Origin: a virus
DNA length: 64,000 nucleotides
Direction: 5' to 3' (one strand)
Virus record (IMG/VR): IMGVR_UViG_2571042447_000001
This document shows positions 5,401 through 62,558 of the stretch, piece after piece (positions within the stretch are counted from its first letter, which is position 1; each line of letters starts with the position of its first letter). A program made the translations under genes and the position numbers. The notes beneath the pieces are model-generated. The model saw nothing but the letters and a program-made list of their open reading frames with translations. It was not told where the DNA came from and did no database searches.

Positions 5401-7250
5401 CTGCATGAAATTGTGCAGTTGCGACTTACCGTTTTCGTCGATGGTGGTGCGCATCGAGTGGATCATTTCGGCGAAATTTCCGGTCCCCTCCTCGAAAGCA
5501 CCGGTGATAGAGGGGAGGAAATCCGATCCGACGGCGGAGAGGTCCAGTAGCGCAGAACCGAGATTGCCGAGACCATCCAGCAATGGCCCCAACGCTTCTG
5601 CCGTGTTGGTGAGGATCTGCGAGATGTCGTCCTTGACACCATCTGTCATCAGCCAATCCATGGCCGATTTCAGTTTGGTGTTCAACACGTCCGCCAGCGC
5701 CGTCAGACCGTCCGTCAGGATCGGCATGTAGGTGCCGCCGAGCTCCGAGAACTTCTGCCCCATCCCGTCGAACAGCGCGTCCTGTACCGAGAACCGGAGT
5801 TCCTTCCAGCGTCGGACATTCCGCGTGTCATCTCGACGAACTGCCGTGCATTCGGCGAGAGGTTCGCGAGCGCCTCGTTGTACTTCTCGAGGGACGGCGA
5901 TCCTGCTGCCATGGTGTCGTTCAGGTTCTGCTGAGCGACCGCCACGTTGTCGAGTGCCCGCTCAATCCCTCTCTGCGACTCAGCGACTCGATCCTGCGCA
6001 TCGACGATCGCTTGCTTCGAGTCGACGACACGGTCATCGGCGTCCACCACTGCCTGTTGAGCAGCGACGACCTGGTCCGCACCTTCGACGCCCTTGGCGT
6101 TGACGTCAGCGACCTCGGCCCGGAGATCCTGGTTCGCCTCGCGGACCTCCGTCAGACGCTGGACCTGCTGGCGGTAGGCGAGATCGGCCCTGCGTAGCTG
6201 GGTCGGGGTCGTATCGCCGGAGCTTCGGGCTTCGACCAGTCGTTCCCAGGACTCCTGAACCCCGAGTAGCGCGTCCTCTTCGTCGAGGGAACTGCGCTTG
6301 AGGGCGAGGTTCATGTCCTCGATCTGCTCGGTTGCGGCCTTGCGCGCCTGCGTGAGCGACTTCTGTGCGAGTTCCGCGTCCGCCACCGCGCGACGGTTGT
6401 TCTTCTCCGCAGACTCGACCTCACGCAGTGCTCGTGTGTGGCCCTTCTCTGCCTGCTCCACCGCGTCGATCGCGTCGGCAAGAGAGCGCTGAGCGGCCTC
6501 GGTCTGCTTCGCTGCGGCTGCCGACTCCTTCGCGGAGTTCTTGGCCGCTTCCTTGCCTGCCTCGAAGGCGTCCTTGATGCCGGTGGCACCGACTGCGATC
6601 GTTGCGAAGGTCGCGGCGGCAGCAGCACCCATCGCGGGGAGCAGTGCAACGACCCCTGCTGCCTGGACGAGTTGGCCGATGAGCGGTACCAACGACACTG
6701 CACCCAACGCGACCAAAGCGACCTTCGCCAGACCTGCACCGGAAGCAATGCCACTGAGAGCTGCTCCGGCACCGCCACCGGCGCCGCCACCTCCACCACC
6801 GGCAGGGATCGGCGGCATGCCACGAATCAGCGCCTCGAGCGCCAATACCTGTGCGGTCAGAGCTGCGACCTGAGTCATCGCCGCACCTGTGTCGATGTCC
6901 AGGTTCATGTGGACGTCTCTGATCGATGCCCGGAACGCCTGCATTTGCGCATGTGCCCTGGTCAGGTCCAGATCGGCGCGAACGGTGACGTCGGCTTCCA
7001 TCCCCTGCAACTGGGTACGTACGCGATTACGCAGCCCCGTGAGATTCGGGGTGATGTCGACCTCGACTGCCGGCATGTTCCGGGTACCGTTCCGCACCCG
7101 CTGGTGGAATCCGGCAAGGTTGGGCTCGACCTGAACAGTTGCGTCGACGCGACGCGAATTGACGAGGAATCGCAGTCGCTCGTGGAAGTTCGCCGATAGC
7201 TCTGGTTCGACAATCAGCCGTGCGGATCCCGCGTTGTAACTGTCGGCCAC
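2434..7250 (-). CDS. Tape measure protein with C-terminal peptidoglycan-hydrolase motifs; apparent 1-nt frameshift near 5803
   Basis: ORFs 5715-7250 and 2434-5763 join if one base is restored (GMSDA-WKELRFSVQDALFDGMG). Long Ala/Gly-rich helical sequence; SLT-like RESGGNPNAINDWD and YHGKGGAVDI...HWDHVH motifs. Confidence 0.9.
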
Positions 7251-19393: not shown

Positions 19394-19774
19394 CTACCGG
19401 CCCTCGAATTCGATTCCGAGGATCTCTGCGGCTTTGTGACCGTCGAGGTACTTGTCCCCTAGTTCGAGGACGCCGGCGCTGGCGAGGAAGGCATCTTTCG
19501 CTGCACGGTTCTTGAAGCACAGTGTGACCCAGTACTCGGAGTCGTTCATCTGGCCGAACTGCTCAGCCCACTCTTTCGACGCTCCGGACAAGCCTTTGCC
19601 GAGCGCGTTGAGTTCGGCCTTCGTGTCGTGCTCGATGTCGTCGGTGTATTCGACGTCGGCGAGAGGGTCGGGGTGGGGTTTCGCTTTCAATGCGGAGACG
19701 ACGTCTGCGCGGGAGAACTTCGCGCGGTTGCCTCCGGCTTTGAGCTTTGCTTTCACTTCGTCAGACAGAGCCAT
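19394..19774 (-). CDS. Hypothetical protein coupled to the PP-loop gene
   Basis: 126 aa, overlaps the upstream stop; DSEYWVTLCFKNRAAKDAFL...GDKYLDG. Confidence 0.7.
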   Translation of the reverse strand: MALSDEVKAKLKAGGNRAKFSRADVVSALKAKPHPDPLADVEYTDDIEHDTKAELNALGKGLSGASKEWAEQFGQMNDSEYWVTLCFKNRAAKDAFLASAGVLELGDKYLDGHKAAEILGIEFEGR

Positions 19775-20528
19775 TGATCATGTCCATTCTCATCAGTTCG
19801 AGTTCAGCCAGCGGGAACCAGTGCAGGATGCGCTGGTAGTCGTCGGGGGCGTGGTCGTGGATCGGCTTGAGGAAGTCGTATCGAATTCCGTCGAAGGACC
19901 GACCGTTGCCGTCGAGCCCGCCTTTGTGTCTGGGGTTCACTTTTCCGGCGAGGTATTTGCCGAACCACTCGTAGTCGGGGCCGAGTGTGATGCCGCGGTC
20001 CTTGATCGCCCGTCGCACGTCTGCGATGCCCCAGTCCCAGATGACGGACTGGCGTCGGGTGCGGTGTTTGATCGGGCCGTGGCGCATGATCGCCATTCGC
20101 CTTTGGGCGGAGTCTGTTGCCCGCACGCCGTCGAGGATCCAGGTGTCGTCCTCGGCGAAGTTGTCGCGCATGAGCATGTCCCACTCTTCGCGTGTCGGCG
20201 ACGGGAATCCTGCAGCTTCGATGATCGCGCAGCGTTCGGGCGGCTGGAAGGTGAGGTTGTTGAGCATGCGGTAGAACGCATCTGCCGGCAGGTCGACGAT
20301 ATGTGTTTGAAAATAGTCTTCGTAGCGTTTGAGATCGTCCTCGACGAACTTCAGTCCCGGCACGATCGACTTGTGGATCGGGATGACCTGCATGTTTCGT
20401 CGTTCGAGTTCGATCCAGACGGCGACTGAGTCTTTGCCGCGGGAGAAGTTGAGGATGACGGGTCGACCTTCCGCTGCGAGGTCGTCGAGCATCTGCTTCG
20501 ACGGGGTGATTCCGTCGAGTTCGATCAT
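19761..20528 (-). CDS. PAPS-reductase-like / adenine nucleotide alpha-hydrolase (PP-loop) protein
   Basis: LNFSRGKDS PP-loop, GVRATDSAQRR and IWDW motifs. Confidence 0.75.
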   Translation of the reverse strand: MIELDGITPSKQMLDDLAAEGRPVILNFSRGKDSVAVWIELERRNMQVIPIHKSIVPGLKFVEDDLKRYEDYFQTHIVDLPADAFYRMLNNLTFQPPERCAIIEAAGFPSPTREEWDMLMRDNFAEDDTWILDGVRATDSAQRRMAIMRHGPIKHRTRRQSVIWDWGIADVRRAIKDRGITLGPDYEWFGKYLAGKVNPRHKGGLDGNGRSFDGIRYDFLKPIHDHAPDDYQRILHWFPLAELELMRMDMINGSV

Positions 20529-20839
20529 GTGGTGCTCCGTTCAGTCACAGTCGCGTCGGAATCGCAACCGATGATTCTGGTGTTCGCGGCGTCCTGTGCG
20601 TCGAGGGTCAGCAGTCGCCATGCGTACCAAATCGTTTCTCCGCCACCGAAGTCGACGGTGAAACTTCCGTTATTGTGGTCGCCGGTGCAGGTGAGAGATT
20701 CGTTGGTGAACAGGTATCTGCCGGCGTTCGCACGGATGCTCGGTAGTTCGATGTCAGCCCAGACTCCGTCGTCGAAGTATCTGACTTCACCGTGGTGATC
20801 GGTGTATTCGATGACGGCGACTGTCGTTTGGTCGCTCAT
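20525..20839 (-). CDS. Hypothetical protein
   Basis: 104-aa ORF, 4-bp overlaps with both neighbours. Confidence 0.6.
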   Translation of the reverse strand: MSDQTTVAVIEYTDHHGEVRYFDDGVWADIELPSIRANAGRYLFTNESLTCTGDHNNGSFTVDFGGGETIWYAWRLLTLDAQDAANTRIIGCDSDATVTERSTT

Positions 20840-21027
20840 AGCTCGGTCACGTCAATTACGGTGCGTTCGAGTCCCAGGAATCCGTCGCCGCGCTCGTCTA
20901 CGAGGCTGGCGAGCGCGTTGCTGAGGTCGTATCCTTCTTCGTGTTGTTCGACTGCGAAGTCGTCCGGAACGTCGAACTCCTGCTGGTGTGTGCTGTGCTC
21001 TTCCCAGATGACTCTGATCTTTTTCAT
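20836..21027 (-). CDS. Hypothetical protein
   Basis: 63-aa ORF with GGGGGAG RBS; first gene of the leftward unit from island 1. Confidence 0.6.
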   Translation of the reverse strand: MKKIRVIWEEHSTHQQEFDVPDDFAVEQHEEGYDLSNALASLVDERGDGFLGLERTVIDVTEL

Positions 21028-21178
21028 CGCACTCCCCCGTCTCGCTGGGGGAAGTGTGGGGCCGGCTGGGCTGTGGTGGCATTTGGGTGGTGTTCTCCCA
21101 TGGGTGACCTCACTGGTTTGGGATGTTCCCCTGGGGCACTTGCCCCCTGGGCCAGCTTGACTAGCTGGTGTGTCCCTG

Positions 21179-21208
21179 ACATTAGGTCACTATGCCCCAA
21201 TAGTGCAA
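21179..21208 (-). promoter_or_regulatory. SigA-like promoter (leftward) with operator in the spacer
   Basis: TTGCAC-N18-TAATGT; overlaps CACTAT-N6-ATAGTG (21188-21205). Confidence 0.6.
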
Positions 21209-21445
21209 GCTATGTGCCAACTATTGCAATTAATAGGCCTGAGGGTGACCCTGGGCAATCCTGGGGCCATTCTAGGCACTATGTACCCATAGTGCCTCAT
21301 GGCCCTGAGAATTGATCTCAGGGCCAGGGTCACCCTTCCTGAGGTTGACCAGTGATGCAGTGCAGCCATAGGGGCAGTTCACAACCCTGGGAGGTCTATC
21401 AGGTCCACAGAAATGCCCCTAAAAAATGCACCCCTACCTGCAGAG

Positions 21446-21475
21446 TTGACAGACTATGCCCCCATAGGGCAAACT
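21446..21475 (+). promoter_or_regulatory. SigA-like promoter (rightward) with operator in the spacer
   Basis: TTGACA-N18-CAAACT; the spacer is GACTAT-GCCCCC-ATAGGG. Confidence 0.65.
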
Positions 21476-21750
21476 ATGTCCCAGCAAGCCAGTAGGGGCC
21501 AGCAACACAGGCCAGCTGGCAAGCAATCTGGATACCAGCTCAGAGTCTGGAAAACCTCAGTGTTGGTCTGTCCCAACAACTTCATATCGTCACAAGCCTG
21601 AATGCCGGCTCTTGGGAACCCTGAATAGGCCAGGGAAGAAACCCTCGAGCACATGATCTTTGAGAACTCAATAGCGTGAGACACCCACAACCACAAGGCA
21701 GCAATGCCCAATGGTGTTGCTGCCAATGATCCCTCGGAAAGGGGACCATT

Positions 21751-22350
21751 ATGTCCAGCAAGTCCACCGAAGCGTATGTCCCAGTTTTCAAGACTGAGAC
21801 CCTTCCGGACGACTTCACGAACGTGCTCGGAGCGATGCTCCTCATGGGCTGGAGTTACACCGTCGAACACAGCGTGGTCAACGAGGTGGTTGCGCGGATC
21901 ACCGTCCGCGCACACAAGGTCAAAGCCGACGGATCTCCCGAAGGTAAGGCCCGTGAAATCCAACTCGTATGGGAACACGTCGGTGGTGAATGGTTCTGCA
22001 TCGCAGAACAAACCGGGTACCTCAAGAAGAAGATCGGCGCCGACGGCGCAGCGATCGACTTCAAGAGTTCTGATCTGCTGATCAACTACCTGGGCAATCA
22101 CACCGCTGAATGGATGTTCAATCCGATCGAGCCCCAAAGCCGAAGCGTAAGAGCCGGCAGAAGGCAATCGGTGACGGAAAGAACGCCGGCCAGCAGACCA
22201 TCGACCTCGACGATGACGGCGATGACGCTCCCCAATCGGGAGTCACCGCGGAAGAAGTCATCGAAGAGTGACCATCGTTCGACAGTGGGCTCCGGCGAGC
22301 TGGCACTCGCCGGAGCAAGGGTGGGCACCCGTCCCCGGTGCCCACCCTGA
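21751..22350 (+). CDS. Hypothetical protein (true 3' end uncertain)
   Basis: First long rightward ORF after island 1; GGGGA RBS. Confidence 0.5.
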   Translation: MSSKSTEAYVPVFKTETLPDDFTNVLGAMLLMGWSYTVEHSVVNEVVARITVRAHKVKADGSPEGKAREIQLVWEHVGGEWFCIAEQTGYLKKKIGADGAAIDFKSSDLLINYLGNHTAEWMFNPIEPQSRSVRAGRRQSVTERTPASRPSTSTMTAMTLPNRESPRKKSSKSDHRSTVGSGELALAGARVGTRPRCPP

Positions 22351-22394
22351 CGTTCGGAATTCACCCTCAGTCTCGAAAGGTCAGGACACGCACA

Positions 22395-23147
22395 ATGGTT
22401 GACAACAAGATGCTCAACAGGATCAAGGGTCTGTTCGCAAAGGCGGATTCGGTCGAAGGTACACCCGAGGCTGATACGTTGCGCGAGAAGGCATTCGAAC
22501 TCCTGGCGAAGTACGGCATCGACGAAGCAATGGCCCGTGGTTCTGCCGGTTCCGGCAACGTGGATGGCGACACAATGAAGGCGGTAACGTTCACCTACAC
22601 CGGTGACCGGTTCGGCTACGAGAAGATGTATCTGGTCAATCGCGTATCCAAGTCCCTGCATTGCGACGCCGTTCAACTGCATGGTGAGCATGTGTTGCAG
22701 ATTTTCGGGCTGTCCCGTCATCTCGAGCGCGTGAAGTTCTTGATCCAACTCCTGATGCCGCAGCTGCTTTCGTCTGCAACGCAGGCAATTCCAGCGAATC
22801 CGTTCGCGGGGCGGGATCCGAAGGATTCAGCCCGTATCACGGCAGAACACCGCGCGGAGTTCATGATCGGGTTCGCGGACCGCATCGGTTCCCGTATCCA
22901 AGAGAGCGAGGACAATGCGGCGTCGACGTACGACCGTGAGAACGGCGGCACCGGAGCATCTCTGATGCTCAAGAGCGACTTCGATCGAGCGCAGGCAGCG
23001 ATGTACAAGAAGTACGCCGGAATGATCGGCCAGGGTCGCGGGCGCTCCGTCGGCCGCGGCGAAGGTTACCGAGCCGGCCATGCAGCAGGTGACCGTGCCG
23101 ACGTAGGGAACACCCGCGTCGGCGCCGGAAGGCAGGCCATCGGGTAA
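22395..23147 (+). CDS. DUF2786-domain protein
   Basis: N-terminal RIKGLFAKA...EA...KAFELLAKYGID signature. Confidence 0.75.
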   Translation: MVDNKMLNRIKGLFAKADSVEGTPEADTLREKAFELLAKYGIDEAMARGSAGSGNVDGDTMKAVTFTYTGDRFGYEKMYLVNRVSKSLHCDAVQLHGEHVLQIFGLSRHLERVKFLIQLLMPQLLSSATQAIPANPFAGRDPKDSARITAEHRAEFMIGFADRIGSRIQESEDNAASTYDRENGGTGASLMLKSDFDRAQAAMYKKYAGMIGQGRGRSVGRGEGYRAGHAAGDRADVGNTRVGAGRQAIG

Positions 23148-36133: not shown

Positions 36134-36381
36134 CGGTCGTCTCCGATCAGATATTGGATTTGGAGGGCTGGGGTCGAGTCCGGGTCGATCGACAGTGCAG
36201 CGATGTCCGTTTCTCCTCCGAGGGCTTTCACGATGGCGTCGAGAATGCTGATGGCGTGCTCGGCGGTGATGATCGGACGCCTTCCGGCAGGAATCGTGAC
36301 GGCGTCTTGGATGATGCGGCCACGCCAGTAGTTGGTGGTGATCGCTGCGATCTTGTTTCGGCGTTCGGGTGAGTCGTTCAT
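36130..36381 (-). CDS. Hypothetical protein
   Basis: Coupled short ORF. Confidence 0.5.
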   Translation of the reverse strand: MNDSPERRNKIAAITTNYWRGRIIQDAVTIPAGRRPIITAEHAISILDAIVKALGGETDIAALSIDPDSTPALQIQYLIGDDR

Positions 36382-46512: not shown

Positions 46513-47473
46513 GACAGGTGCCCGTTGATCCAGAGGTGCCAGCGGCAGATTTCGATAGACAGTCCGGCTTCCCGGTTGAACTCGGGGTCGTCGGTGATTG
46601 CCTGGATGCGCTCGGGCAGTTCGTCGAGAGTGCCGCTGTCGTCGCGATCGGTGTGGTCGGTGCCGGTGTGCCAATCGGCGATCCATGCGTGTGGCTCGGT
46701 GAGGTTGAGCCAGGACGTGTCGGCGGTGATGGTGATGGCGACGTCGCGTTGGTTGGTGTCGATGCCGAGTTCGGTGAGCGCGGCTCGTTCGTTGTCGGTG
46801 AGGTGGACGTTGCGGACGAGTGCGGTGGTCACAGTTTCAGCTCCTTGCCTGCGGCGATCATGCTGCGCCGTGCTTCGGCGTGGATCATGGCGCGCTGGTC
46901 GGCTTTGAATGACTGCAACGGCGTTTCGCGGTGGATGCGGTTCGCGAGGGTTTCGACAGCGATGGGTTCGCGGTTGTCGGTGGGCCGGAATGTGTGCCGG
47001 GCTCTGCGGTTTTTGGGGGTGTTCATTGTGGGTGTCCTCTCGGATTGTTCGCCCTGCCAGGGGCATTGCCATTCTATCCGGTTTCTGTGTGTTGTGTTGG
47101 ATAGTAGACGACCGGATGTCGCGATGGATAGTAGACACCTGATTCAGGCGTCTACCGGGTCGTTCTCGTACCATTCGGGTCGACGCGGGGTGTTGCCGAA
47201 CGGGTTGTCGGCGGCGTTCCAGAACGGGTTGTGAGTGTCCGGATAGTCGCCGTAGTGGGCGCGTTCGATTTCGGCGCGGGCAACGGCGTCGAGTTGGGCC
47301 TCGTATCTCGGGCCTTCGTCGGCGCGGAGTTTGTCGAGTTGGGTTCGCGCGTCGGCGAGGTCTCGGATCGCTTGGTAGGCCTGGATCGCGTGGGCGTGTC
47401 GGCTTTCCGGGTGTTGTTTGATTGTCATTGGTTCACCTCCCTTGTGTTGTGGGACAGCTGGTTTCATGCACTG

Positions 47474-47503
47474 AGGTAACACTATGGGGGCATAGTGTGT
47501 CAA
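47474..47503 (-). promoter_or_regulatory. SigA-like promoter (leftward) with operator in the spacer
   Basis: TTGACA-N18-TTACCT; the spacer is CACTAT-GCCCCC-ATAGTG. Confidence 0.55.
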
Positions 47504-47737
47504 GTCCTCAGGGCCAATTCTGACTATTTGGTCATAGTGCCCCCTATTTGCCCTCAGGGGGCCAGAAAGTGCCATCCTGCCCCCTTGGGCACCCCAAGGG
47601 GCAATTGAGCCCCCAGGGGCCACCAGGGGGCCACCAGTGCAGTGTCCAGACTGACCACCAATCAGGGGGTAGCCACTCCCCTAGCTCCCACCTGGAGGCA
47701 TGACAAACCACCCTTGACCTGGGATCTAACCCAAGTG

Positions 47738-47767
47738 TTGACAGACTATGCACCCATAGTGCAAACT
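47738..47767 (+). promoter_or_regulatory. SigA-like promoter (rightward) with operator in the spacer
   Basis: TTGACA-GACTAT-GCACCC-ATAGTG-CAAACT, nearly identical to 21446-21475. Confidence 0.65.
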
Positions 47768-47984
47768 ATGGTCATGCCAGTGAGTGACAGTCACTGACAA
47801 GGCCACTGGAAGCCGGCAACGAAAGCCCGCCGGCAAGGCCGTAAGTCCCCCCAGTCTCAGCTGGGGTGCGGACACCGAATCTGGTCGGGTGAAATCCGCT
47901 CCCCCATGATCCTTGAGAACTCCACAGTGTGAGCACATTCGTGCACCCCATAGGACCACCCTCCACTCACGGAAGGTCACCCCT

Positions 47985-54921: not shown

Positions 54922-56052
54922 TTATGGTCGCCGGAACGCAACGACATTGCTCGTCGCCGCCATCGACTCTTGTTCCTCTGTGGACGATTGGTCGCCGGTC
55001 CAACGCAAGATCAGCCCAGGGTCGATCCCGTGTTCGTCTGATGCACGCGTCACGAAGTGCCGGCCGTACACCTTCGACAGAGCCTGTCCGAACAATCGTG
55101 GCGTTTCCTGCGCTACGTCGACCGGCTCGTTTGTTCGCCATCCTTGCGAGGACAGCTGAATGCTCAGACTTCGATAGCGCTCCGGCGAGATCACGCCGAT
55201 ATCCTTTGCGCGCCTGGCGATAGCCCCCACCGAGATCCCATAGTCCGCCTTGATCCGGAGATAACCGTGCAGCGACAGGCTCTCCGTGACTCGAGCGCGG
55301 ACTACTCGTTCAGGGAGCAGCAGTGCGCCGCCGAAACGAAACGCGCGCGCTTCCTCCGGACAACGTGTGCTCCCCAACGGGGACGCGAGCCGTCGATCGA
55401 AGATCCAGTGAGCGGCCTCGTGCCCCAAACTGAGACGCTGGACCGCACCAGGCAGTTGACTCGTGAGCGCTACGAGGGGTCGTTCGGTTCCAAGGTTCGG
55501 ACGGGAGACGCCCACGTGATCCGATGCGCCTTCAAAGCTGTCATCCAAATCGTTGACGACACCGACGCCGTGACGTTCCAGCAGTCGAGTGACGTTCTTG
55601 ACCGGATCTTCTGGTCCTAGACCTGCGGATCGTCGGAGGGCTTCGGCACATTCCTCGGGGTCGTTGTTGAACTCGGCAGGGTCAGGTAGTTCGCTCGTCC
55701 TGAATTCCGACGCTGCGGAGATGGCGTTGAACAGACGAGCGGCTTCGGAGTAGAGACGCTTCACACGGCGTTCGTCACGAGCGCTCGCGCGGGCGCGCTT
55801 ACGGAAGGTGAACTGGCCGGCGTCTGTCTCCCCGTCTGGCATTTGGAAGAAGCTGAGCGGGAGCGAATAGGTTTGGGAGAGTTTGACCGCGAGGGACTCG
55901 GGCAATGGTCGTGAACCCTTCTGCACCAACGACAAAAAGCTCTGCGATACCTCCGCGGAGGTCGCGAGCTCTTGCTGTGTCAGGCCTTTGAGGTCACGAA
56001 GGGCCAGCAGTCGGGGTCCGAGCAGCTCTCGGTCAGTGTTGTTGTCAATCAT
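54922..56052 (-). CDS. XRE-HTH + ImmA/IrrE (peptidase M78) fusion
   Basis: RDLKGLTQQELA...SQSFLSLVQKG HTH; RLSLGHEAAHW (HExxH) and EARAFRFGGALLLP. Confidence 0.88.
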   Translation of the reverse strand: MIDNNTDRELLGPRLLALRDLKGLTQQELATSAEVSQSFLSLVQKGSRPLPESLAVKLSQTYSLPLSFFQMPDGETDAGQFTFRKRARASARDERRVKRLYSEAARLFNAISAASEFRTSELPDPAEFNNDPEECAEALRRSAGLGPEDPVKNVTRLLERHGVGVVNDLDDSFEGASDHVGVSRPNLGTERPLVALTSQLPGAVQRLSLGHEAAHWIFDRRLASPLGSTRCPEEARAFRFGGALLLPERVVRARVTESLSLHGYLRIKADYGISVGAIARRAKDIGVISPERYRSLSIQLSSQGWRTNEPVDVAQETPRLFGQALSKVYGRHFVTRASDEHGIDPGLILRWTGDQSSTEEQESMAATSNVVAFRRP

Positions 56053-60143: not shown

Positions 60144-60647
60144 CTACAGGTGGTGCCAGGGCACCGGATCTACCCCAATATCCGGTATGCGATCACGACG
60201 CCTCGAGGAGCGCGTCGACTGTCGCTCTCCCCCACATCTGCTCGGCTTTCTCCCACGCCGGCAGCGGCGCGTTCTGCAGCAGCTCGGCGAGGAACTCTCT
60301 CGGAACTTTGATGCCGGCTTGGGTGCCGGTGCGGATCGCTGCGCGCGTTTCGTGCGAGAGAAGTGGTCCCGGCATTCCTGACACGGCGGTTCCATGTGCG
60401 ACCGGTGCCGGGAGTAGCCGCCGTCGGTGCCGTGCTTGATGTTGCTCGGCCACACGAACAGGTCGTCGGAGACGACGGTCGCCTCGTGGCATACCGCGGA
60501 CGGCGAGTGCCCGTCCATGTCGAGGCACACTCGCAGTCCCCCACCGTCGGCGCCGGACAGGATCTTCACGACCCAACCCGGCTGGTAGATGCCCCACTGG
60601 GTCTCGATCGGGCGAATCAACGGCAATTCGCGTCCCCGAACGATCAT
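60144..60647 (-). CDS. Hypothetical protein
   Basis: HGTDGGYSRH....PPCQEC motif; coupled to the methylase stop. Confidence 0.5.
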   Translation of the reverse strand: MIVRGRELPLIRPIETQWGIYQPGWVVKILSGADGGGLRVCLDMDGHSPSAVCHEATVVSDDLFVWPSNIKHGTDGGYSRHRSHMEPPCQECRDHFSRTKRAQRSAPAPKPASKFRESSSPSCCRTRRCRRGRKPSRCGGERQSTRSSRRRDRIPDIGVDPVPWHHL

Positions 60648-62082
60648 GCCGCCACCCCCAACGATTCTGCGACGGCCGCGATCAGGTCACGTGCGGCCGG
60701 TGGCGTCACGGCGTTTCCGGCCTGCCGCACCTGTTCGCGTTTGTTGCCGAGGATCGTGTAGTCCGACGGGAAGGCCATTCCTGCTGCGATCTCGTGCGGT
60801 TCGAGCATCCGGAACAAGCAATCGTCGACGGACAGCGACTCGGCGCTGGCCAGACCGTGATGCAGTCCGTTCGCTGCGAACGTATCGAGCGGATCGGTGA
60901 TCGATTTCACGGTGTTGTTGTTCCGCATCGGCACGACGAATGCGTGATGGATTCCGCCTGCCGACACCGTCGAAATCGGTTCGTCAACATGATGATTCTT
61001 CGACTGCCCGCGCATCACCGACAGGAAAGCGACGGCAGTTTCGTTTCGTGCTGTCATCGTCCGAAGCGGGTCGACTGCGGACCGTGCTTGCTTCCCGTCA
61101 CGACCCTCCACTGGCACGAGCAGCGCTGGCACGGTTGATGCCGTCAACGTCGGCAAGTGGCGTCAGTGCTCGTCGACATCTGCGCAAGGTTGCTTCGCGG
61201 CGTGTACGCGCGTTGCACGAATGGTGCCGCATACTTTGCCAAGCCGGCCTCGATCCGGGCCAACGTCTTCGGCGCCAACGGCTTGGCTCGGTCCCCGATT
61301 CGCTCCCCGATGATCGACCAATCGATCGCCGACGCAGCGGGGAGCCAACGGGGCTCGACAATCGAGTTGCGGCAGGCCACGTTCGGGCACCGCCAGTGGT
61401 ACTGCGAGCGGTAGCGCCCCCACTGGGTTGACTTCTTCCAGCCCTGGATTGCCGTCACGGTGGCATCGCAGGTCGAGCAGTGCGCCTCCGGTCGGGTCCA
61501 CTTGTCGAGGTCCGGGGCGCGGTTGCCCTTGAGCCAGAACACGACATACATCCTGTCTCTTGATTGCGGAGCTGGAAGTCCGCCGATCTGGGCGTGCATC
61601 GAGTTCATGTAGACGATCCGGTGGTTGTATCCGAGGAGGTCCATCGCTTGGAGCCACGCGGGGAACATGATCCACTTCGCGGCGTCGACGACGTTCTCGG
61701 TGATGATCGCTTCGTATCGGTGATGTTCGGCGAACCGCGGAATGTCCCACATCGTTGCGCGGGACCGTTCGGCAGCCGCGTCGGGCAACGTCTCCCCGAA
61801 CAAGTCCGGCGTCGAGTCGAGGTTTCGTTTGACGCCCTTCGCCTGAGAATGGTTCGTGCATTCGGGCGAACCCCACAGGATCGTCGTTCGAGGGAACCGC
61901 CGAGGATCGACCTGCGACAGATCGGCGCACTGGTGATCAGTGTTCGGATGGTTCGTGTTGTGGGTTTCGATCGCAAGTTCCCAGTGGTTCGCCGCCATAC
62001 GTACCGTGACGCCGGGCACTTGCGTCGCGCCGGTGCTCGATCCACCTGCGCCACAGAACAGGTCGGTGACCGTGATCGTCAT
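60644..62082 (-). CDS. DNA (cytosine-5) methyltransferase (apparent frameshift near 61160)
   Basis: DLFCGAGG (motif I), GSPEC (IV), ENV (VI), PQSRDR (VIII) and QAGNAV (X). Confidence 0.88.
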
Positions 62083-62300
62083 TGCGAGACCTCTTCCCAT
62101 TCCGTGACGGTCCGCGTCACGACCGCGAAGCTTCGCTCGCTGGATCGGGCTGCGGCTTGGGCTTCCTCGAGGGTGCTGAACAGCATCGGGAAGATCGAGC
62201 CGACCTCGGTTCGGAGTGCGAACTCTGTCCGAGTTGAGTCCATAGTTGTCTACTTTCGTCCTAGATACTCGACATCTGAGTGAATGAAAAGTGCTTGCTG

Positions 62301-62558
62301 TCAGGTGATTCCGAGCGCTTTGCCGATGGCGACGACCGTCGGGCAGTCCCGTTTGCGCCGCCGCCACATGCACGCCCGGCAGCCGTTTCGTTTCACGAAG
62401 GCCCGTTCACTGGGCTCAGGCCATGGTTCATGCAGTGCCATAACATCTTTCAGCGCTGTTACGGCTTGTTCGGCTTGCGTGTCCCAGGGGTCCATGCGTT
62501 CGAGACGCGCGAGGATGCGGAGGCGAAGGTCGGACCATTCGTGCCGACTGTCACTCAC
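62301..62558 (-). CDS. Hypothetical protein
   Basis: 85 aa; CRAC...CPT. Confidence 0.55.
   Translation of the reverse strand: MSDSRHEWSDLRLRILARLERMDPWDTQAEQAVTALKDVMALHEPWPEPSERAFVKRNGCRACMWRRRKRDCPTVVAIGKALGIT

What the first reader, a model, noticed from the sequence alone, without database searches (positions are those of the whole stretch)
21065..21587. CG-dinucleotide-free island 1 (523 bp)
Seen: no CG between 21065 and 21587 by manual scan, although the stretch is still G+C-rich (many GGCC, CCC, GGG) and CG is among the commonest dinucleotides elsewhere in the window. The island marks a switch in transcription direction and contains divergent promoters. Inference: strong selection against CG in control DNA. 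Possible causes are avoiding methylation (the phage encodes a C5 methyltransferase), avoiding a CG-recognising restriction or sensing system, or a structural requirement for ssDNA/RNA.
Basis: partly seen in the sequence, partly recalled or inferred. Interest (0 to 1): 0.75.

Follow-up and report, generated by a model that had tools for sequence, protein, structure and literature searches.

The report
CG-free control region of a prophage
A 523-base stretch of non-coding control DNA in a soil-actinobacterium prophage contains not one CG dinucleotide where about 39 are expected; related phages keep the same gap by natural selection, and the cause is unknown and apparently unreported.

Summary
No CG occurs between the CGs at 21063 and 21588 (0 against 39 expected). 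With a second stretch at 47410-47813, this is by far the longest CG gap in the window; the next is 76 bases.

The stretch is the non-coding junction between the leftward virion-gene operon and a rightward operon of a temperate prophage related to Gordonia phages VanLee, Cafasso and Morgana. It carries back-to-back TTGACA-type promoters whose 18-base spacers are filled by the palindrome CACTATG-N4-CATAGTG, plus a third copy between them.

Base composition, tandem repeats and hidden genes do not explain the CG absence. The stretch diverges about ten times faster than its flanks, yet no variant carries a CG. Changes that would create CG are missing, while other changes at the same sites occur normally.

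The syntenic junction in four other lineages cannot be aligned but is also CG-free or nearly so. About 50 more distant relatives and other non-coding DNA are normal.

The phage's C5 methylase is not the cause, because relatives with the same gap lack it.

I conclude that selection acts against CG itself in a fast-evolving control hub. What reads the CG is unknown. The scan noted island 2 and the operators in this window before, and comparable local dinucleotide bans in E. coli phages.

The parts
21065..21587 (.). CG-free island 1: the non-coding control hub between the leftward late (virion) operon and a rightward operon
   Evidence: 0 CG against 39.1 expected. It holds no conserved ORF: 1-2 base indels between haplotypes break every ORF inside it. 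It has no tandem repeats.
21179..21208 (-). Leftward promoter P_L1: TTGCAC (21208-21203), 18-base spacer, TAATGT (21184-21179)
   Evidence: Read from the sequence; positions checked. The same layout occurs at three other sites. It is a motif match only; no transcription start was mapped, and the consensus scan did not list it.
21188..21205 (.). Operator O1, an 18-base palindrome of the type CACTATG-N4-CATAGTG (1 mismatch)
   Evidence: ACTATG/CATAGT is about 107-fold enriched in the two islands.
21277..21294 (.). Operator O2, a perfect palindrome midway between the two promoters
   Evidence: It lies within nested inverted repeats at 21241-21336 (fold z-score -5.0 and -3.5).
21446..21475 (+). 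Rightward promoter P_R1: TTGACA (21446-21451), 18-base spacer that is operator O3 (21452-21469), then CAAACT (21470-21475)
   Evidence: It matches 47736-47769 of island 2 at 33 of 34 positions.
21652..21669 (+). Conserved leader element CATGATCTTTGAGAACTC, outside the CG-free zone, in the 5' leader of the rightward operon
   Evidence: It aligns with 47905-47922. It is also present in the corresponding leader of Cafasso, Morgana and L050.
21751..22350 (+). First gene of the rightward operon (199 aa, no known family), followed by a DUF2786/DUF7168 gene at 22338-23147
   Evidence: Both are conserved next to the hub in VanLee, Cafasso, Morgana and L050.
20836..21027 (-). First gene of the leftward operon (63 aa). 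It is followed by a 104-aa gene, a PAPS-reductase-like gene (19761-20528), then the terminase and virion genes
   Evidence: Synteny with VanLee genes 164-165 and 1-4.
47410..47813 (.). CG-free island 2, a paralogous control hub. Operators at 47480-47497, 47522-47539 and 47744-47761; P_L2 at 47503-47474 (minus strand); P_R2 at 47738-47767 (plus strand)
   Evidence: 0 CG against 31.6 expected.
60644..62373 (-). C5 cytosine methylase gene, split by a frameshift near 61144-61156 in this copy
   Evidence: PF00145 match and an intact 587-aa open frame in the near-identical record G002. There are two ORFs in the window, which are collinear in one frame in G002.

Best explanation
The stretch is one of two master control hubs of a temperate actinobacteriophage. 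It holds two outward-facing host-type (TTGACA) promoters. The 18-base spacer of each is occupied by the palindromic operator CACTATG-N4-CATAGTG, and a third operator lies between them. One dimeric repressor could therefore shut both directions and loop the DNA. This much is shown by sequence architecture; binding itself is inferred.

The rest of the hub is fast-evolving spacer DNA. The total lack of CG is kept by purifying selection against the dinucleotide itself. It is not a result of base composition, repeats, coding, or constraint on binding motifs. This is shown by polymorphism and comparative tests.

The reason is inferred, and I put it at roughly 30%. CG is the handle of some DNA-reading activity in these hosts or phages, either a cytosine or guanine modification in CG context or a CG-dependent binder or nuclease. 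The switch DNA is kept invisible to that activity so that repressor and RNA polymerase binding do not depend on it. The agent is not the phage's own C5 methylase.
For: Observed count is 0 against 39 and 32 expected CG, and these are the two longest gaps by far.

Island 1 differs from G002 at 48 of 523 sites (9.2%), against 18 of 1999 in the flanks. None of these changes makes a CG. Simulation with the same substitution spectrum expects 9.5 new CG, and 0 of 20000 runs gave none.

Four further haplotypes read from public runs are also CG-free, with identical boundaries.

CG-creating transitions number 1 of 185 possible, and that one is neutralised by a neighbouring change. Other transitions number 47 of 742 (P=3e-4). 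Transversions at the same TG/CA sites are normal: 4/185 against 7/230.

The syntenic hub is flanked by the same genes on both sides in the relatives. It is CG-free or nearly so in VanLee (340 bases), Cafasso (719 bases with 3 CG), Morgana and IMG/VR record G003 (372 bases, 0 against 24 expected). These hubs gave no BLAST match to the window's islands and use partly different motifs.

About 50 TerL-related loci have no gap above 110 bases.

Other large non-coding regions, including other divergent junctions of Cafasso, have normal CG.

Against: No CG-specific reader is known in actinobacteria, and none was identified here.

Sites of other cytosine methylases are present or enriched in the hub: GGCC (7 against 2.9 expected), CCWGG (6 against 1.3), AGCT and CTGCAG. 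General avoidance of methylation therefore does not fit; only a reader of CG as such would.

Promoters and operators are motif inferences. The consensus scanner did not list them, and no start sites are mapped.

In VanLee most of the gap is a 9-base tandem array, which is trivially CG-free.

The polymorphism tests rest on about five haplotypes of one lineage.
Confidence: 0.5

Rival explanations
1. By-product of motif packing. The hub is a dense array of protein-binding words (operators, CCACCAGG, GGCCCTGAG, C-run/W/G-run words) that happen to lack CG and partly arose by local duplication. The gap then reflects constraint on those words, not on CG.
For: Shared short words are strongly enriched in the hubs of several lineages. 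VanLee's gap is mostly a GGCCACCAG tandem array. IMG/VR contigs L190 and L176 have arrays of runs of about five G in the equivalent place. The other long CG gaps in Cafasso (64-178 bases) and in Sleepyhead (94 and 76 bases) are intergenic, as expected of ordinary promoters.
Against: Island 1 has no tandem repeats. It evolves about ten times faster than its flanks, so most positions are not constrained. TG/CA sites accept transversions at the normal rate and lack only the transitions that would give CG. The hubs of different lineages share only part of their word sets, and the operator palindrome is absent from G003 and VanLee, yet all lack CG.
Confidence: 0.18
2. Mutational decay without selection. 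Cytosines in CG are methylated and deaminate to T, and in this unselected, non-transcribed DNA the process has run to completion.
For: The CG deficit equals the CA+TG excess in both islands. Restoring those changes would bring G+C back to the genome mean. The phage encodes a C5 methylase.
Against: Zero CG in about 10 island copies with 185 convertible sites needs CG loss several hundred times faster than gain. Yet across the aligned part of the window outside the two islands (about 56 kb), CG transitions are only 1.1-1.5 times as frequent as other transitions. Other non-coding DNA and other divergent junctions keep normal CG. Relatives with the gap have no such methylase. The boundaries are identical in all haplotypes.
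Confidence: 0.07
3. Avoidance of the phage's own C5 methylase. The control DNA lacks the methylase's target so that methylated virion DNA and unmethylated prophage DNA are regulated alike.
For: The methylase gene is present in the phage and intact in G002. The logic fits a temperate life cycle.
Against: There is no homologue in VanLee or Cafasso, which have the gap. The closest homologue's phage, Sleepyhead, has no large gap, and neither does the part of SkinnyPete that was fetched. The gene is frameshifted in this window. A 4-6 base target would not require loss of every CG. The target remains unknown: there is no match to any solved structure.
Confidence: 0.07
4. Bulk physical requirement. 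The DNA between divergent promoters must have a particular flexibility, melting behaviour or non-B structure (looping between three operators, G/C-run A-like or quadruplex-prone DNA), and CG steps disturb it.
For: CC/GG steps are enriched 1.35-1.45 fold and CA/TG steps 1.5-1.7 fold, and GGGG/CCCC runs 4-fold. AT-dinucleotide periodicity is near 10.5-11 bases. Nested inverted repeats give a fold z-score of -5. L190 and L176 carry G-run arrays.
Against: No known physical parameter separates CG from CA/TG sharply enough for an absolute ban. GC steps, equally stable, are not depleted in island 1 (0.97). The periodicity is largely that of the operator half-sites. The inverted repeats are not conserved in G002.
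Confidence: 0.13

Closest known systems
Lambda-type immunity regions (three operators with divergent promoters, such as OR with PR/PRM)
   Same: Back-to-back promoters; three palindromic operators per region that overlap the promoter elements; and two such regions per genome that share one operator type.
   Different: The flanking genes have no recognisable repressor or Cro fold. The regions are 400-520 bases long rather than about 80. Most of the DNA is fast-evolving spacer. No complete dinucleotide ban is reported for lambda, to my knowledge.
Restriction-site and palindrome avoidance in phage genomes, and the site-poor first-entering DNA of T5 and T7 (from my own knowledge of the literature)
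   Same: Selection removes short words from phage DNA. In T5 and T7 the effect is local and concerns early control DNA.
   Different: Here a dinucleotide, not a 4-6 base site, is removed. Removal is complete, limited to internal non-coding hubs of a temperate phage related to phages whose records start at the small terminase gene, and non-CG palindromes are not avoided.
CpG depletion with TpG/CpA excess in vertebrate genomes and in viruses of vertebrates
   Same: The arithmetic signature is the same: the CG deficit equals the TG+CA excess.
   Different: The setting is bacterial, with no known CG methylation. The depletion is absolute and strictly local. CG is over-represented (1.25) across the window as a whole. 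The polymorphism data indicate selection rather than decay.
CA/TG-free early-gene islands in E. coli phages, found earlier in this scan (e1-179886 and related notes)
   Same: A local, selection-maintained ban on one dinucleotide in promoter-rich phage DNA, shared by related phages, with cause unknown.
   Different: The dinucleotide differs (there CA/TG is lost; here it is in excess). There the DNA is coding and sits at a genome end of virulent phages; here it is non-coding and internal in a temperate actinophage. I did not re-examine those cases.

Membership tests
Divergent promoter-operator control region of a temperate phage | Lies between oppositely transcribed gene blocks | tested here: met
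   Minus-strand genes run up to 21027 and plus-strand genes start at 21751. The same holds at 47428 and 47985.
Divergent promoter-operator control region of a temperate phage | Outward-facing promoters with -35 and -10 elements at proper spacing | tested here: inconclusive
   There are four units of TTGACA or TTGCAC, 18 bases, then xAxxxT, two of them near-identical. The E. coli-type consensus scan did not list them, and no start sites are mapped.
Divergent promoter-operator control region of a temperate phage | Repeated palindromic operators overlapping the promoters | tested here: met
   There are six copies of CACTATG-N4-CATAGTG with 2 or fewer mismatches, all inside the two islands. Four of them fill promoter spacers.
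Divergent promoter-operator control region of a temperate phage | Repressor and Cro-type genes next to it | tested here: not met
   The flanking small proteins have no Pfam or PHROGs match. The only clear regulator found is a 376-aa protein at 54922-56052.
Methylation-driven CpG decay | CG deficit balanced by TG+CA excess | tested here: met
   Deficits of 39 and 32 against excesses of 37 and 33.
Methylation-driven CpG decay | CG sites hypermutable genome-wide | tested here: not met
   Transition rates at CG-capable sites are 1.9-2.2%, against 1.5-1.7% elsewhere.
Methylation-driven CpG decay | Affects unselected DNA in general | tested here: not met
   Other non-coding segments have CG observed/expected of 0.8-1.7.
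Avoidance of the phage's own methylase target | The gap co-occurs with the methylase across relatives | tested here: not met
   VanLee and Cafasso have the gap but no methylase. Sleepyhead and the fetched part of SkinnyPete have the methylase but no gap.
Avoidance of the phage's own methylase target | The methylase target contains CG | not testable with these tools
   No match to a solved methylase. Methylome data are needed.
Low-complexity or tandem-repeat DNA | Made of head-to-tail copies of a CG-free unit | tested here: not met
   No array in island 1 and only a two-copy 11-base unit in island 2. The feature is met in VanLee.

The most novel reading that the evidence does not exclude
These phages keep their master switch as an 'inverse CpG island'. 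A CG-reading activity not yet described in actinobacteria or their phages acts on CG throughout the genome. It could be a CG-context base modification, a CG-dependent silencer or binder, or a defence nuclease. Only the control hubs are kept blind to it. The few CG that Cafasso and Morgana tolerate all sit in operator centres, where a bound regulator would cover them.
Probability: 0.3. Interest if true: 0.8.

Novelty: new variant of a known kind. Interest (0 to 1): 0.66.

Why it matters
Local, absolute bans on a dinucleotide are rare, and they are a direct footprint of something that reads DNA. Here the ban sits in non-coding switch DNA, is maintained by measurable selection, and recurs in hubs of related phages that gave no BLAST match to this one. 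Together these features point to an unrecognised interaction between CG and the regulation or survival of temperate actinophages.

Several of the relatives (VanLee, Cafasso, Morgana) are plaque-forming phages of a harmless laboratory host, so the question is directly testable by recoding and methylome sequencing.

Practically, long CG gaps are a simple, annotation-free marker of master control regions in high-G+C phage genomes.

Tried and rejected
BLAST of both islands against GenBank phages found no match.

The pattern scans for the promoter-operator unit in IMG/VR and in G003 used a wrong spacer (N5 instead of N4), and their results are void. The corrected scans found only the near-identical record G002 plus chance single hits, and no operator of this type in G003 or VanLee.

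Searches for more relatives found little. The PAPS-reductase-like protein gave only G002 and one Streptomyces-labelled contig. The 199-aa hub-side protein gave two IMG/VR records, no metagenome contig, and 1 of 401 genomes of the class.

A link between the PAPS-reductase-like gene and the gap is rejected. Cutibacterium phage CA1NRNZ has the gene, but its 1.5-kb non-coding region holds 51 CG against 66 expected.

Transcription-coupled repair as the cause of locality is rejected, because other divergent junctions in Cafasso have normal CG.

Rfam found no family in the island; the best hit was E=0.8.

The Protein Atlas gave no usable hit for the 199-aa protein. The methylase matched no solved structure.

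RNA-library contigs of two soil metatranscriptomes span the island. Because they are contigs and may derive from DNA, they show neither transcription nor its absence.

Literature searches found no description of CG-free regions in actinophages.

I considered CpG-specific natural products of soil actinomycetes (mitomycin, echinomycin, anthracyclines; from my own knowledge) as the selective agent. I set this aside because removing 40-70 of about 10000 CG barely changes the genome's target size.

Full report
**Observation.** The window (64 kb, 62.2% G+C) has 7660 CG, one every 8.4 bases, and CG is the commonest dinucleotide (observed/expected 1.25). Between the CG at 21063 and the next at 21588 there is none. 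This is the longest gap in the window. The second is 47408-47814 (406 bases) and the third is only 76. The stretch 21065-21587 is 54.7% G+C, so 39.1 CG are expected from its own base composition; island 2 expects 31.6. No other dinucleotide is nearly as deviant. The missing CG are matched almost exactly by extra CA+TG (+37 and +33). Tandem Repeats Finder finds nothing in island 1 and only a two-copy 11-base unit in island 2. Every other uncalled segment of 90 bases or more in the window has CG observed/expected between 0.8 and 1.7.

**What the DNA is.** The window belongs to a temperate siphovirus-type prophage. Its terminase, portal and capsid genes match Gordonia phages Morgana, Aleemily, ObLaDi, Cafasso and VanLee (84-88 kb) at 65-70% DNA identity. 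Near-identical copies are an 84-kb IMG/VR provirus (G002, 97%) and short contigs of an assembly labelled Streptomyces sp. (G001). Public runs show the prophage in isolates of at least five organism labels and in soil, wastewater and biofilm samples.

Genes to the left of island 1 are on the minus strand. In order away from the island they are a 63-aa and a 104-aa gene, a PAPS-reductase-like gene, the terminase genes, portal and so on. Genes to the right are on the plus strand: a 199-aa protein of no known family, then a DUF2786/DUF7168 protein. Both flanks are conserved in the relatives, so the junction is syntenic.

Inside the island every ORF is broken by 1-2 base indels in one or another haplotype. 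The island is therefore non-coding.

**Anatomy.**
- An 18-base palindrome, CACTATG-N4-CATAGTG, occurs six times with two or fewer mismatches, three times in each island and nowhere else in the window.
- In three cases it exactly fills the 18-base spacer between a TTGACA box and an xAxxxT box. These are P_R1 (21446-21475), P_R2 (47738-47767) and P_L2 (47503-47474).
- In the fourth case it overlaps the spacer and the -35 box of P_L1 (TTGCAC-18-TAATGT, 21208-21179).
- The two rightward units match at 33 of 34 positions. Each is followed, 140-180 bases downstream and outside the CG-free zone, by a shared leader element CATGATCYTTGAGAACTC.
- A third operator lies between the promoters of each island.

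This is the layout of a repressor-controlled divergent switch. The promoters remain motif inferences: the E. coli-consensus scanner did not list them, and no start sites are mapped. The middle of island 1 (21241-21336) holds nested inverted repeats (z-score -5.0 and -3.5), but their arms are not conserved in G002. Rfam finds nothing.

**Is CG itself selected against?**
- Island 1 differs from G002 at 48 of 523 positions (9.2%), while 2 kb of flanks differ at 18 of 1999 (0.9%). Island 2 shows 11 of 404 against 13 of 1999. The islands are thus the fastest-evolving DNA in the neighbourhood, which argues against dense constraint.
- Even so, G002, G001 and three further haplotypes read from public runs all have zero CG, with the same two boundary CGs.
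- Placing the 48 observed substitutions at random positions of matching base gives 9.5 new CG on average and never zero in 20000 trials.
- Pooling 72 polymorphic sites, transitions that would create CG occur at 1 of 185 possible sites, and that one is neutralised by an adjacent insertion. Other transitions occur at 47 of 742 (P=3e-4).
- Transversions at the very same T-of-TG and A-of-CA sites are as frequent as at other T/A sites (4/185 against 7/230). The constraint is therefore on making CG, not on keeping TG/CA words.

**Mutation pressure alone is not sufficient.** Across the aligned part of the window outside the two islands (about 56 kb), CG-type transitions are only 1.1-1.5 times as frequent as others. 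Zero CG across all copies would need loss several hundred times faster than gain.

**Comparative evidence.** The same junction is CG-free or nearly so in lineages whose hub sequences gave no BLAST match to the window's islands.
- VanLee has a 340-base gap, mostly a GGCCACCAG tandem array wrongly annotated as a membrane protein.
- Cafasso has 719 bases with three CG, and Morgana is alike.
- IMG/VR provirus G003 has 372 bases with 0 against 24 expected, plus a 97-base second site sharing a TG-rich word.
- In Cafasso all three tolerated CG lie in the 4-base centres of operator-type palindromes. Morgana's two are in the same places.

As controls, about 50 other loci with a related large terminase have no gap above 110 bases. 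Cafasso's other large non-coding regions, including two other divergent junctions, have normal CG. The trait thus belongs to a particular regulatory module of one phage lineage, not to non-coding or non-transcribed DNA in general. The module is rare: two IMG/VR records, no metagenome contig, and 1 of 401 sampled genomes of the class.

A C5 methylase gene exists at 60644-62373 on the minus strand. It is intact in G002 but frameshifted in this window. It is not the cause, for three reasons:
- VanLee and Cafasso have no homologue.
- Sleepyhead carries an 80% identical enzyme and has no gap longer than 94 bases; the fetched part of SkinnyPete likewise has none.
- General avoidance of cytosine methylation does not fit, because GGCC, CCWGG, AGCT and CTGCAG are present or enriched in the hub.

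The adjacent PAPS-reductase-like gene is also not linked to such gaps in a Cutibacterium phage. A bulk physical need has hints in its favour: CC/GG and CA/TG enrichment, G and C runs, and a periodicity near 10.5-11 bases that largely reflects operator half-sites. However, I know of no property that singles out CG so absolutely, and GC steps are not depleted in island 1.

**Conclusion.** Three things are shown: a real, statistically extreme CG-free stretch; its identity as a non-coding divergent junction carrying a repeated promoter-operator design; and continuing selection against the CG dinucleotide in a lineage-specific, otherwise fast-evolving hub. Two things are inferred: one repressor closes both promoters, and CG is avoided because some activity reads it. 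I rate a CG-directed modification or binder at about 30%, motif packing at 18%, a physical requirement at 13%, and mutational decay and own-methylase avoidance at 7% each.

I found no published description. Earlier notes of this scan flagged island 2 and the operators in this window, and described selection-maintained CA/TG-free islands in E. coli phages. Those are a parallel, not independent support.

Noticed in passing
window 60644-62373 (-): The C5 cytosine methylase is split into two overlapping ORFs by a frameshift near 61144-61156. The 97%-identical record G002 has one open 587-aa frame. This is either a recent pseudogene or a sequencing error.
   Followed up: partly
window 21652-21669 and 47905-47922; Cafasso L018 about 36140-36170; L050 about 7180-7197; L176 4870-4890 and 5250-5270; L190 6355-6371: A conserved leader word, CATGATCYTTGAGAACTC, lies downstream of hub promoters in this phage and its relatives. 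It also occurs, sometimes in several copies, in other high-G+C IMG/VR phage contigs. Its function is unknown.
   Followed up: partly
L190 6671-6960; L176 5600-5870: Two unrelated IMG/VR actinophage contigs carry, between divergent units next to that leader word, 230-300 bases made of G-run arrays (words such as GGGGGTA and GGGGGCA) with few or no CG. These arrays are candidates for quadruplex formation.
   Followed up: no
VanLee record 82424-82726 (L013 37424-37726): Annotated gene 163, 'membrane protein', lies on a tandem array of about 24 copies of GGCCACCAG. It is probably not a gene.
   Followed up: no
window 21065-21587 against flanks: The island is a hot spot of divergence: 9.2% against 0.9% between the window and G002. 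Several 1-2 base indels are also present.
   Followed up: yes
Cafasso record 81260, 81337, 81726: The only three CG inside Cafasso's 719-base hub each sit in the centre of an operator-type palindrome. Morgana's two CG are at the corresponding places.
   Followed up: partly
window 21751-23147 (+): A 199-aa protein of no family (its conserved part is residues 13-127) and a DUF2786/DUF7168 protein form the first two genes on the leader side of the hub. This holds in every lineage that has the hub.
   Followed up: partly
window 54922-56052 (-): A 376-aa protein matches phage transcriptional regulators (phrog_2439, E=5e-54). It is a candidate for the operator-binding repressor, although it lies 7 kb from island 2.
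   Followed up: no
   Followed up: no
window 20985-21805: An 821-base contig from a soil metatranscriptome library spans the whole island. It may derive from DNA in the library, so it does not show transcription.
   Followed up: partly
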